Part shown: piece by piece, positions 18,001 to 21,000 of the stretch | Numbering within the stretch: position 1 is the first letter of the stretch | Layout: every line of letters starts with the position of its first letter | DNA from: Escherichia coli | GTDB lineage: Bacteria; Pseudomonadota; Gammaproteobacteria; Enterobacterales; Enterobacteriaceae | Assembly (NCBI RefSeq): GCF_017348835.2 | Contig: NZ_CP071375.1 | Strand: one strand, 5' to 3' | Length of the DNA: 64,000 nucleotides | Made by a program: the position numbers

Positions 18001-21000
18001 CTTCCCGTAGCTAAGAGCCGTAAACAGGATCGCAATCAATGCGAACGCATAGGCTGTCGGCACATGACCATCCGTGAGGCCTGAAACGATACCAAAAGTA
18101 TCAAACAGCGTCATCGGCTGCATATAGGCAAGACCCATCATTACAACCGGAACTAACGTAAGCGTTTTACGCAATTCCACGCGAGAGGTGTTTGGAGTAA
18201 CGTTATGCGACATGGTCATTCTCCTTTACGGTGATAACCGTCGCGTAAGCAAAAAATTGCCCCATTTTTTTGGATTCCTCAGCGACAACAACTGTCGATT
18301 TTTAGTAAATATCTATCCGGTACGAAGCCCGGCCTCTTGGTATGAATGATTGGTTTGAAGCAAAAAATAACCGACGCTGATGAAACGTCGGTTTTTAGTC
18401 ATTTTTTGACAGCGGCGCATTGTGCCTAAATGGGGGGGAAATGACAAGAGAATGAGAGGCTTGTCATAATAATTTTTCTTTAAATGGCTGATTTTCCGTC
18501 ATCAGATTTTGCATAAACACCGGCGATCGCACTATTTGCTAAAATTTCATCCCGCCACCAGCCGCTGGCAAGCCCTGCGGTCTGTTCATTCCAGCCAATC
18601 CAGACGGGTTCAAAGAGAGTTTGGGCGACCACTTTCTTCTCGATTAACGCGCCACTATCGAGAAAACGTTGCGCCAGATAACGGGGTAAATAGCCGCAGC
18701 CGAGGCCGCTAATTTGCAGCTCCAGCTTGGTTTTAAAATCGAAAACGGTAATGGCTTCTTGTTCGTCGAGAAGTTGTGAGGCCGTAGAAGCGCCGGCCTG
18801 CGCAGTGTCCCCCACCACAATCGCCCGATATCGTTTAATGATACGACGGTTTAACGGTTCTTCTTCCTGGGCTAACGGATGATGAGGCGCGACCGCAAAG
18901 ACTTGTTCCAGATCGCCCAACCGCGAGAAACCAAACTCACTGGAAGATGGTGGCTCATGCATCGCGCCAACAATAATATCCGCTCGCCCCTGAGTCAGGG
19001 CATCCCAGGAACCACCGAGTACGCCATTGATAAACTTCAGGCGCGTCACGCTATGATGTTGATAAAAAGCTTCAATCAGTGGCGCAAGCAGAGAAAAAGG
19101 AAACGTGTCGTCCACGCCAATCACCAGCTCGTTTTCCCAGCCTTCATGCAGTTTGATCGCCTGCTTTTCCAGTTCTCGCACGGTATGCAGAACTTCCCGC
19201 CCCTTCTCTAATAACATTTTTCCGGTACGGGTGAATTTAGCGCGGTGACCGCTACGATCAAGCAATTGAATATTAAGGTCGCTTTCCAGCTTGTGAACGG
19301 TGTAACTCAGAGCGAACGGCGTCTTGTAGAGTTTGGCCGACGCCGCCGCAAAACTGCCTTCTTTTTCTAAGGCATCGAGGATCATCAACACATCCAGCAG
19401 TGGTTTCATACACGCCCCCTTGCAGTGCATGCGGCGTCCTGCTGGCGTGATCGTTTACTCCAGCGGCATTACCAGCGGATCGGGATACTGGTATTCAAAC
19501 CCCAGTTCATTACAAATCCGACTGCCATCAATAATCTTACCTTTGCCGCTGTCCAGACTATTTCTGAACTGCGGAGGTTCCAGCCCCAGTAAACGGGCCA
19601 TCTGCGGATAGAAAACATTACGCGCAGGGTGAGCTGGCGCACATATATTATAGATGTGTCCGCCTTTAGGTGCCTGTAACAACAGAGTGATAGCGCCAAT
19701 AACATCTTCTAAATGGACTAAATTAACACCATGTTCACCATCAGGCGCGGTTTTTCCGGCAAAGAAGCGTCCGGGATGACGTCCCGGTCCGACCAGGCCC
19801 GCAAGACGCAGAATATCGACCGAAGTACCGGGTAAATTGTGCAGCCAGTCTTCAAGTTCTTCTAATACTCGTCCACTGTTGGTTACCGGATTACGCGGGG
19901 TAGTTTCTTTCACCGTGCCTTGCGCGTCGCCATAGACAGATGTTGAGCTGGTGAAAATAATGCGGGGAATACGATGGGCCAGCGCGCTATCTACTAACTC
20001 TTGTACCGCTTGTAAATAGAACTCATCGCCGGGGCCGCTACGACGGGCCGGAAGCGTAATGACCAGCGCATCGGCATCCATCAGGGCATCCAGATCGTCA
20101 GAATCGCAAACTAACTCAGGCTCCATGCGAAGCAGATAGCTATCAATGCCACTCATTCGGGCCGCTTCGACACCATCTTGTGTGGTTTTACTCCCGGTGA
20201 CTTGCCAGCCTCGCGCTGAAAGTGACATCGCCAGCGGCATGCCTAACCACCCTAACCCGACAATTGCGACCTTTTTCATCCGTTATCTCCTGATACACCT
20301 TAGATCTATAAGGCTACGCTAGCGTATCAAAACTGACAATTCATTCTATGAATGAAATCGAAACTGTTAGCAAATATACAATTGCCTGATGCGCTCCGCT
20401 TATCAGCCCTACAAAAACATCAATATATTGAATTTAGGCAACATTTGTAGACCAGATAAGGCATTCACGCCGCATCCGGCAGGAACAAAGCCCACTTTAG
20501 TTACAGAACACAATGTTCTTGAGGGTTTTAAAGACATATTTTCACGATTACTTTTCTAACGTAGTCACTCCAGGCCCCCACCTTTCCCCGCTCATTCATT
20601 AAACAAATCCATTGCCATAAAATATATAAAAAAGCCCTTGCTTTCTAACGTGAAAGTGGTTTAGGTTAAAAGACATCAGTTAAATAAACATTCACAGAGA
20701 CGTTTATGACACGCGTTCAATTTAAACACCACCATCATCACCATCATCCTGACTAGTCTTTCAGGCGATGTGTGCTGGAAGACATTCAGATCTTCCAGTG
20801 GTGCATGAACGCATGAGAAAGCCCCCGGAAGATCACCTTCCGGGGGCTTTTTTATTGCGCGGTTGATAACGGTTCAGACAGGTTTAAAGAGGAATAAGAA
20901 AATGACAGACAACACTCGTTTACGCATAGCTATGCAGAAATCCGGCCGTTTAAGTGATGACTCACGTGAATTGCTGGCGCGCTGTGGCATTAAAATCAAT

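What the first reader, a model, noticed from the sequence alone, without database searches (positions are those of the whole stretch)
20280..20705. yefM-yoeB toxin-antitoxin pair absent between yeeZ and hisL; REP elements occupy the site
K-12 carries yefM-yoeB immediately upstream of hisL (recalled). Here the 425-bp yeeZ-hisL interval has no ORF of 60 codons or more and contains two REP elements instead. This is a presence/absence polymorphism of a type II TA module at a conserved locus.
Basis: partly seen in the sequence, partly recalled or inferred. Interest (0 to 1): 0.45.

Follow-up and report, generated by a model that had tools for sequence, protein, structure and literature searches.

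The report
Known yefM-yoeB-less yeeZ-hisL spacer
This E. coli strain has a short repeat-containing spacer between yeeZ and the histidine operon, where K-12 has the yefM-yoeB toxin-antitoxin genes; this is a common, already published strain-to-strain difference, and the gene-less version is probably the older one.

Summary
The yeeZ-hisL spacer (20280-20705, 426 bp) has no ORF of 60 or more codons and no trace of YefM or YoeB. It holds two inverted REPs that form one BIME-1-type element (20384-20481). K-12 MG1655 has yoeB-yefM at this exact site.

This is not a clean deletion. About 205 bp of the window (20360 to about 20565) and about 655 bp of K-12 are unrelated alternative segments between identical flanks.

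Among 5426 complete E. coli genomes, 1197 (22%) carry the REP allele, including O157:H7 and E. coli B. 4212 (78%) carry the toxin-antitoxin (TA) allele.

Outgroups suggest the direction. Salmonella, Citrobacter, Enterobacter and others have a spacer of about 160-230 bp with neither element. E. albertii and two other Escherichia species carry the REP allele at 90-96% identity. E. whittamii carries the TA allele. The TA cassette (promoter, yefM, yoeB) is 82-86% identical to copies on large enterobacterial plasmids, at least one of them a conjugative IncFII plasmid. The window therefore most likely keeps the ancestral Escherichia spacer, and the TA module is the derived insertion.

Iguchi et al. 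2011 (PMC3158064) already reported the missing yoeB/yefM in O157 Sakai and REPs in this spacer. The finding is ordinary and of low interest.

The parts
19455..20279 (-). yeeZ (SDR family oxidoreductase / putative epimerase), left anchor gene
   Evidence: 274-aa ORF; annotated yeeZ in 100%-identical strain PE164 and in MG1655
20280..20359 (.). Left flank shared by the REP and TA alleles. It holds a perfect 7-bp hairpin, TTCATTC-TAT-GAATGAA, at 20340-20356. It also holds the -10-like TAGAAT of a yeeZ promoter-like site.
   Evidence: 100% identical to the K-12-type allele over 77 bp. The shared sequence extends to ...GAATC when the other Escherichia REP alleles are compared. Hairpin -4.3 kcal/mol, z -3.3. 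Promoter-like site 20370-20343 on the minus strand, 9 of 12 matches.
20360..20565 (.). Allele-specific segment of about 205 bp. It stands where K-12 has about 655 bp (yoeB, yefM, their promoter and about 86 bp more). The right edge is uncertain between 20562 and 20567.
   Evidence: Pairwise alignment with K-12-like strain 7FA. blastn of the K-12 spacer against the window hits only the two flanks. Orthologous at 90-96% identity in E. albertii, Escherichia sp. E1V33 and MOD1-EC7003.
20384..20412 (+). z-type inverted REP (iREP): GCCTGATGCGCTCCGCTTATCAGCCCTAC, ending in CTAC
   Evidence: Read directly from the sequence. Forms a hairpin, z -2.8. Aligns with the z iREP of the torZ-cmoB BIME. Nomenclature follows PMC3333891.
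20413..20446 (.). 34-nt long (L-type) linker of the BIME. It carries an IHF core-like motif, ATCAATATATTG, at 20419-20430.
   Evidence: The linker aligns with that of the torZ-cmoB BIME. The motif is present but is not enriched over chance in the window (9 found, 7.5 expected). The literature says BIME-1 L linkers often carry an IHF site.
20447..20481 (+). y-type REP: GTAGACCAGATAAGGCATTCACGCCGCATCCGGCA. It is partly decayed, with stem mismatches.
   Evidence: Matches the y consensus with 3 mismatches, against 0.00 chance matches expected. The hairpin is weak. The copies in E. albertii and MOD1-EC7003 are more canonical. A sub-threshold Rfam naRNA4 hit, 19.9 bits against a gathering score of 59.5, is uninformative on its own.
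20568..20620 (.). Right flank that is specific to Escherichia. Both alleles share it, but Salmonella, Citrobacter and Enterobacter lack it.
   Evidence: 97.7% identical to the K-12 allele. It falls in the gap of the alignment with outgroup genera.
20621..20705 (+). his promoter region and the 5' end of the leader transcript. It is conserved across Enterobacteriaceae and is the same in both alleles.
   Evidence: Conserved block AAAAAAGC.CTTGC...GTGGTTTAGGTTAAAAG in the outgroup alignment. Calling it the his promoter rests on established knowledge, not on a test made here.
20706..20756 (+). hisL, the his operon leader peptide (MTRVQFKHHHHHHHPD)
   Evidence: Sequence; annotation transfer
20732..20855 (+). 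His leader / attenuator RNA
   Evidence: Rfam RF00514, 131.6 bits against a gathering score of 49, E 1.5e-23
20902..21801 (+). hisG, first structural gene of the his operon (right anchor)
   Evidence: Annotation transfer from PE164; ORF

Best explanation
The window carries the TA-less allele of a common two-allele structural polymorphism in the E. coli yeeZ-hisL spacer.

In this allele, about 205 bp (20360 to about 20565) hold one BIME-1-type repeat. The repeat is a z iREP, a 34-nt long linker and a y REP, followed by about 85 bp of unique DNA.

In the other allele (K-12 and about 78% of complete E. coli genomes), that segment is replaced by about 655 bp. These carry a terminator-less 'promoter-yefM-yoeB' addiction module of plasmid type, which reads toward yeeZ.

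Inferred history:
1. The ancestral enterobacterial spacer was about 160-230 bp, with back-to-back yeeZ and his promoters.
2. The Escherichia ancestor gained about 265 bp that included the BIME.
3. Later the TA cassette replaced most of that insert. Its left end lies 3 bp from the yoeB stop codon.
4. Both alleles have since been kept and shuffled by homologous recombination. This inference fits a locus next to the his/O-antigen region.

The strain in the window therefore retains the older state rather than having lost the TA. The his promoter core and attenuator are the same in both alleles. What probably differs is how yeeZ is transcribed: from its own promoter-like site straddling the junction here, and by read-through from the autoregulated yefM-yoeB promoter in K-12.

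Shown: the anatomy, the allele counts, the outgroup states and the plasmid homology. Inferred: the order of events, the recombinational spread and the effect on yeeZ expression.
For: Anatomy and absence of the TA:
- ORF listing, alignment and tblastn agree.
- MG1655 has yoeB-yefM at the site.

Allele counts:
- The REP allele at >=80% coverage is in 1197 of 5426 genomes, including O157:H7.
- The TA allele is in 4212 of 5426.
- In one search, E. coli B strain C2566 and O157:H7 strains match only the two flanks, about 310 bp apart, as expected for the REP allele.
- There are only 18 extra places among 5416 records, so REP-allele genomes have no second K-12-like copy.

Outgroups:
- Most of the roughly 40 usable non-Escherichia loci have yeeZ 161-193 bp from hisL. 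They have no YefM/YoeB hit, and the six aligned have no BIME. These include Salmonella arizonae and diarizonae, Citrobacter, Enterobacter, Kosakonia, Leclercia and Atlantibacter. The exceptions are listed in the Against line.
- E. albertii, Escherichia sp. E1V33 and MOD1-EC7003 have the REP segment at 89.6%, 96.2% and 93.8% identity. This is in step with their yeeZ divergence of 91.8-93.7%.
- E. whittamii has the TA allele.

Repeat identity:
- The y consensus matches, against 0 expected by chance.
- The element has the same z-linker-y architecture as the torZ-cmoB BIME.
- The BIME-1 definition comes from PMC3333891.

Plasmid origin of the cassette:
- It is 82-86% nt identical over cassette positions 5-572 to large plasmids of Salmonella, Citrobacter and E. 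marmotae. That stretch runs from just before the yoeB stop codon to about 65 bp upstream of yefM. At least one of these plasmids is a conjugative IncFII plasmid.

Fixed locus:
- In all 10 places shown, the exact K-12 YefM lies in the order hisG/hisL, yefM, yoeB, yeeZ.

Prior publication.

yeeZ transcription:
- A promoter-like site straddles the junction in the window.
- The TA allele has no promoter-like site on the yeeZ strand and no terminator-like site on that strand between yoeB and yeeZ.
Against: - The direction is not proven. The TA allele is also old: up to 4.3% nt divergence within E. coli and 96.7% identity between K-12 and E. whittamii. It also crosses a species boundary. An ancient trans-species polymorphism, or the reverse order of events, therefore cannot be excluded.
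- The junctions lie about 25 bp and about 82 bp away from the REPs. No target-site duplication or clear microhomology was seen, so the insertion mechanism is unknown.
- The promoter calls are consensus matches only.
- Three non-Escherichia loci depart from the short spacer and were not examined: L049 Citrobacter freundii (231 bp), L052 Kosakonia oryziphila (451 bp) and L037 Enterobacter sp. EA-1 (partial YeeZ hit, 665 bp).
Confidence: 0.8

Rival explanations
1. Secondary loss. The lineage of this strain once had yefM-yoeB at the site, as K-12 does. It then lost the pair by a deletion or replacement that brought in the REP-containing segment, for example by recombination with a TA-less donor.
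For: - The TA allele is the majority allele in E. coli (78%).
- The TA allele is old (95.7-100% identity).
- The locus is in a region known for recombination, where flanks of the O-antigen cluster are exchanged between lineages (PMC3158064). An individual lineage could therefore have reverted to the REP allele by allelic replacement.
Against: - No TA remnant exists in the window.
- The REP segment is orthologous in three other Escherichia species, with divergence that matches their yeeZ divergence. It was therefore not created de novo by a deletion event.
- At most, this lineage re-acquired a pre-existing ancestral allele. That would not change what the sequence is.
Confidence: 0.15
2. The TA module is not missing from the strain but sits elsewhere in its genome or on a plasmid. 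The spacer would then be only a positional variant.
For: - Plasmid-borne yefM-yoeB homologues exist in enterobacteria, including an E. marmotae plasmid at 83.5% identity.
- Only 64 kb of the source genome could be examined.
Against: - There is no YefM/YoeB signal anywhere in the 64-kb window.
- Across 5416 complete E. coli genomes the K-12 cassette matched 5434 places in all. REP-allele genomes such as O157:H7 611, TW14588 and E. coli B C2566 showed one place each, the flanks only.
- The exact K-12 YefM was found only in the hisL-yeeZ context.
Confidence: 0.04
3. Artefact. The missing genes would reflect an assembly collapse or chimera at the repeat-rich spacer.
For: REP/BIME repeats can confuse short-read assemblies.
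Against: - The same 426-bp spacer occurs in 1197 complete genomes.
- It also occurs in three other Escherichia species.
- It was reported independently for O157 Sakai.
Confidence: 0.01

Closest known systems
yeeZ-hisL region of E. coli O157:H7 Sakai, described by Iguchi et al. 2011 (PLoS One 6:e23250, PMC3158064)
   Same: [quoted passage not shown] It also lists REP sequences in the yeeZ-hisL intergenic region and shows indels of REP-containing fragments there. O157:H7 genomes match the window's spacer at 96.3% identity.
   Different: The window comes from an O108-type strain, not O157. That paper did not give population frequencies, outgroup states or the replacement anatomy worked out here.
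Chromosomal yefM-yoeB type II toxin-antitoxin module of E. coli K-12 (b2017/b4539)
   Same: Same chromosomal site and same flanks: 100% identity over the left 77 bp and 97.7% over the right 132 bp.
   Different: The window has no antitoxin gene, no toxin gene and none of their promoter/operator. It is the empty allele, or more precisely the alternative allele.
BIME-1 (z1 + y REPs with a long L linker; also called RIP/RIB elements), as defined in Bachellier et al. and Ton-Hoang et al. 2012 (PMC3333891)
   Same: It is a single-copy pair of inverted REPs: a z-type iREP ending in CTAC and a y-type REP starting with GTAG. A 34-nt linker between them holds an IHF-core-like motif. The linker aligns with another BIME of the same architecture at torZ-cmoB.
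   Different: It lies between two divergently transcribed genes rather than at a gene's 3' end or within an operon. From memory, those are the usual REP locations. The y REP stem is partly decayed. IHF binding was not tested, and the motif alone is not significant.
ccdO157 toxin-antitoxin polymorphism in the folA-apaH spacer of E. coli (Mine et al. 2009, Genetics; recalled, not read here)
   Same: It is a type II TA module of plasmid ancestry, present or absent at a fixed intergenic site between conserved core genes, and varying among E. coli lineages.
   Different: The TA family and the locus differ. There it is K-12 that lacks the module. This comparison rests on memory only.

Membership tests
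YefM-YoeB type II toxin-antitoxin module | Adjacent, overlapping antitoxin (Phd/YefM, PF02604) and toxin (YoeB, PF06769) ORFs of about 83-84 aa | tested here: not met
   The spacer has no ORF of 60 aa or more. tblastn with K-12-type YefM and YoeB gave best E-values of 0.066 and 0.26, with no credible hit in 20280-20705. The K-12-type allele does meet the feature.
YefM-YoeB type II toxin-antitoxin module | Autoregulated promoter/operator (TGTACA palindromes) upstream of yefM | tested here: not met
   blastn of the whole K-12 spacer against the window aligns only the two flanks. The operator region has no counterpart.
REP (repetitive extragenic palindromic) sequence, E. coli y and z types | An extragenic imperfect palindrome of 30-40 nt with a conserved GTAG (or CTAC in the inverted copy) at its foot, matching the family consensus | tested here: met
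   The y copy at 20447-20481 starts with GTAG and matches the consensus with 3 mismatches, against 0.00 expected by chance. The z copy at 20384-20412 ends in CTAC and folds with z -2.8. The definition comes from PMC3333891.
REP (repetitive extragenic palindromic) sequence, E. coli y and z types | Dispersed in many copies in the same genome | tested here: met
   Four further y-type copies lie in the window, at 56526, 56622, 56718 and 61315. Paralogous BIMEs match at about 81% identity elsewhere in E. coli chromosomes, for example at torZ-cmoB.
BIME-1 | One z1-type and one y-type REP in inverted orientation, separated by a conserved long (L) linker, occurring as a single unit rather than a tandem array | tested here: met
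   The order is z iREP, 34-nt linker, y REP, present once. The linker aligns with that of the torZ-cmoB element. Assigning the short 29-nt z copy to z1 rather than z2 rests on recalled consensus lengths.
BIME-1 | IHF binding in the L linker | not testable with these tools
   The core motif ATCAATATATTG lies at 20419-20430, but such motifs occur at chance frequency in the window (9 found, 7.5 expected). Binding needs a footprint or ChIP experiment.
His leader / attenuator (Rfam RF00514) | Covariance-model score above the gathering threshold, next to a His-rich leader peptide | tested here: met
   131.6 bits against a gathering score of 49, at 20732-20855. hisL encodes seven consecutive His codons. 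This is context only and is identical in both alleles.

The most novel reading that the evidence does not exclude
The REP/BIME-1 allele and the yefM-yoeB allele could be an ancient polymorphism shared across Escherichia species and kept by selection rather than by drift and hitch-hiking.

One possible reason is that the TA cassette puts yeeZ under an autoregulated, stress-responsive promoter and stabilises the neighbouring his/O-antigen segment. Another is that the BIME-1 acts as an IHF-bound insulator. It sits, unusually, in the untranscribed gap between two divergent promoters.

A second variant of this reading is that the BIME-containing insert served as the landing pad for capture of the TA cassette.
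Probability: 0.1. Interest if true: 0.4.

Novelty: already known. Interest (0 to 1): 0.12.

Why it matters
It matters little for discovery. It is a textbook case of a chromosomal type II toxin-antitoxin module behaving as accessory, plasmid-derived DNA at a fixed intergenic site.

It has some practical uses:
- Roughly one complete E. coli genome in five, including O157:H7 and the B/BL21 lineage, naturally lacks yefM-yoeB. Conclusions on persistence or stress drawn from K-12 deletion strains do not carry over to those strains automatically.
- The empty allele is probably ancestral. This argues against reading TA-less strains as having 'lost' a function.
- yeeZ is probably wired differently in the two alleles. 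That is relevant to polar effects of ΔyefM-yoeB constructs, a concern already raised in PMC5120126.

Tried and rejected
1. Hidden yefM/yoeB with unusual start codons. All six frames were listed down to 20 aa, and tblastn was run at E<=100 with word size 2. Nothing was found.

2. A simple deletion model. The alignment shows two unrelated segments between shared flanks, so this was rejected.

3. A possible third allele among genomes that matched only the left 57 bp of the probe (H67-H70). The one inspected, strain 08_3418 (H69), is an ordinary TA allele with a 15-codon hisL. ETEC6 (H95) is an ordinary REP allele. About 17 of the 5426 genomes remain unassigned. One lab strain has IS1A inside the TA cassette (H71).

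4. 'E. coli' MEI4BO-21 as an E. coli strain with the short ancestral spacer. It lacks yeeY and its hisL region is only 89.6% identical, so it is probably a misfiled non-coli organism. It was not used as evidence.

5. An RNA gene in the spacer. Rfam at E<=1 found only the His leader and a sub-threshold naRNA4 hit on the y REP.

6. The IHF motif as independent evidence. It occurs at chance frequency, so it was not used.

7. REP-mediated insertion of the TA cassette. The junctions are not at the REPs, and no target duplication or convincing microhomology was seen, only a possible AGTC at the right edge. This remains unsupported.

8. The simple scan found no intrinsic-terminator-like site in the window's spacer.
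Full report
**Observation**

The window is E. coli. A 1456-bp probe spanning yeeZ to hisG is 100% identical to pig strain PE164 and matches 5423 of 5426 complete E. coli genomes.

- yeeZ is 19455-20279 (-) and hisL is 20706-20756 (+).
- The spacer is 20280-20705, which is 426 bp.
- The longest ORF in the spacer is 56 aa (20389-20559 +). It runs across the repeats and is not annotated in PE164.
- tblastn with the K-12-type YefM (83 aa) and YoeB (84 aa) against the whole window gave only noise, with best E-values of 0.066 and 0.26.
- MG1655 has yeeZ(b2016)-yoeB(b4539)-yefM(b2017)-hisL(b2018).

**The repeats**

- 20384-20412 is a z-type inverted REP, GCCTGATGCGCTCCGCTTATCAGCCCTAC, ending in CTAC.
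- 20447-20481 is a y-type REP, GTAGACCAGATAAGGCATTCACGCCGCATCCGGCA, starting with GTAG.
- A 34-nt linker lies between them.

The y consensus (recalled from memory) matches 20447-20480 with 3 mismatches. Four further copies lie in the window, and 0.00 matches are expected by chance.

The whole unit aligns with a BIME between torZ and cmoB that has the same z-linker-y architecture. Ton-Hoang et al. define BIME-1 as a single z1 + y pair with a conserved long linker that often carries an IHF site (PMC3333891). The element fits that definition.

An IHF core-like ATCAATATATTG lies at 20419-20430, but such motifs occur at chance frequency. IHF binding is therefore only inferred from family membership.

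The y stem is partly decayed in the window and more canonical in E. albertii and MOD1-EC7003.

**Anatomy of the polymorphism**

The window was aligned with K-12-like strain 7FA, the K-12 spacer was compared with the window by blastn, and the junctions were refined with REP alleles of other Escherichia species.

- The left flank is shared up to ...ATGAATGAA(A)TC (window 20359).
- The right flank is shared from about 20563-20568 onward.
- Between the flanks the window has about 205 bp: the BIME plus about 85 bp of unique DNA.
- K-12 has about 655 bp of unrelated sequence there: 3 bp, yoeB, yefM, the operator/promoter, and about 86 bp of unknown origin.

It is therefore a replacement, not a clean deletion. 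No TA-allele genome seen in the sampled rows keeps the BIME.

**Frequencies**

| Allele | Complete E. coli genomes (of 5426) | Share | Source |
|---|---|---|---|
| REP allele, >=80% coverage of an allele-specific probe | 1197 | 22% | |
| TA allele | 4212 | 78% | |
| Neither | about 17 | | |

O157:H7 strains and E. coli B carry the REP allele. The unassigned genomes include oddities such as an IS1A insertion in the TA cassette.

The K-12 cassette matched only 5434 places in 5416 records, so REP-allele genomes do not hide a second K-12-like copy. In all 10 contexts shown, the exact K-12 YefM lies between hisL (or hisG, where hisL was not called) and yoeB-yeeZ.

**Direction of the event**

A back-translated hisL pattern retrieved 48 loci from the one-genome-per-species collection.

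- In most of the roughly 40 usable non-Escherichia loci, yeeZ starts 161-193 bp from hisL. None has a YefM/YoeB hit, and the six aligned have no BIME. These include Salmonella enterica arizonae and diarizonae, Citrobacter, Enterobacter, Kosakonia, Leclercia, Lelliottia and Atlantibacter.
- Three loci depart from this and were not examined: L049 Citrobacter freundii (231 bp), L052 Kosakonia oryziphila (451 bp) and L037 Enterobacter sp. EA-1 (partial YeeZ hit, 665 bp).
- Escherichia has about 265 extra bp inserted just upstream of the conserved ...GACAATTCAT.CTAT.AAT block.
- E. albertii, Escherichia sp. E1V33 and Escherichia sp. MOD1-EC7003 carry the REP allele. The allele-specific segment is 89.6%, 96.2% and 93.8% identical to the window. 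This is comparable with their yeeZ divergence of 91.8-93.7% and points to vertical descent.
- E. whittamii carries the TA allele. Its cassette is 96.7% identical to K-12 and its YefM and YoeB are 100% identical in protein.

The most parsimonious history has three steps: a short ancestral spacer, then a BIME-bearing insert in the Escherichia ancestor, then the TA cassette replacing most of that insert.

This is an inference, with a confidence of about 0.75 for the order of events. The TA allele is itself old, down to 95.7% identity within E. coli. E. fergusonii, E. marmotae and E. ruysiae chromosomes were not sampled.

**Origin of the cassette**

K-12 cassette positions 5-572 run from just before the yoeB stop codon to about 65 bp upstream of yefM. 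This stretch is 82-86% nt identical to yefM-yoeB on 130-170-kb plasmids of Salmonella, Citrobacter and E. marmotae. One of them is a conjugative IncFII plasmid.

The transferred unit is thus promoter + antitoxin + toxin without a terminator. This matches the 'minimal horizontally transferring TA' described in PMC5120126.

**Likely functional consequence (inferred)**

The his promoter core, hisL and the attenuator (Rfam His_leader, 131.6 bits) lie in the shared right flank and are the same in both alleles.

On the yeeZ side the alleles differ:
- In the window, a promoter-like site (-35 CTAACA, -10 TAGAAT, 9 of 12 matches) straddles the left junction.
- In the TA allele, the scan found no promoter-like site on the yeeZ strand and no terminator-like site between yoeB and yeeZ. 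This fits the 'likely cotranscribed' note in PMC5120126.

These are consensus matches only.

**Prior knowledge**

- Iguchi et al. 2011 stated that O157 Sakai lacks the K-12 yoeB and yefM between yeeZ and hisL. They also reported REP sequences and REP-containing indels in the yeeZ-hisL region (PMC3158064).
- The review by Fraikin et al. notes that no TA system is conserved among MG1655, W, EDL933 and UTI89 (PMC7167474).

The finding is therefore already known.

**Verdict**

Novelty is 'already known' and interest is low.

Noticed in passing
window 32400-51100 (probe 38130-42172): The O-antigen gene cluster downstream of the his operon is of the O108 family (wzx and wzy annotated as such). It is found in only 5 of 5426 complete E. 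coli genomes, including pig strains PE164 and F2_81 at 100% identity. A gene annotated in some records as LipB/KpsS-family capsular polysaccharide export protein sits under the same probe as O108 wzx and wzy.
   Followed up: partly
window 56526-56751 (-) and 61315-61348 (-): Three y-type REPs lie in tandem with a 96-bp period, forming a BIME-2-like array. A single further y-type REP lies among the colanic-acid genes. These resemble the variable REP sites that Iguchi et al. 2011 reported at wcaK-wzxC and cpsG-cpsB.
   Followed up: no
L003 (NZ_CM149565.1, 'Escherichia coli' MEI4BO-21, soil): This record is filed as E. coli in RefSeq. It has a 178-bp yeeZ-hisL spacer of the non-Escherichia type, no yeeY between plaP and the yeeZ homologue, and only 89.6% identity in the hisL region. 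It is probably a misidentified species.
   Followed up: partly
window 20340-20356; outgroup loci L016, L034, L044: A perfect 7-bp hairpin (TTCATTC TAT GAATGAA) lies just left of the point where the Escherichia-specific insert begins relative to Salmonella and Citrobacter. The REP/TA allele junction lies only a few bp to its right. Two independent rearrangements thus share almost the same left breakpoint, beside the conserved -10-like element of yeeZ.
   Followed up: partly
L004 (strain 08_3418) and L058: Some E. coli genomes have a 15-codon hisL with one His codon fewer (WP_001375657.1) next to an otherwise normal TA allele.
   Followed up: no
H71 (NZ_CP195093.1, laboratory strain TUM1509): An IS1A element is inserted within the yoeB-yefM stretch of a K-12-like laboratory strain.
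   Followed up: no
L001 1775-1860 (K-12-type allele): About 86 bp lie between the plasmid-homologous yefM promoter region and the right junction. They have no counterpart in the window or in the plasmid copies, and their origin is unknown.
   Followed up: partly
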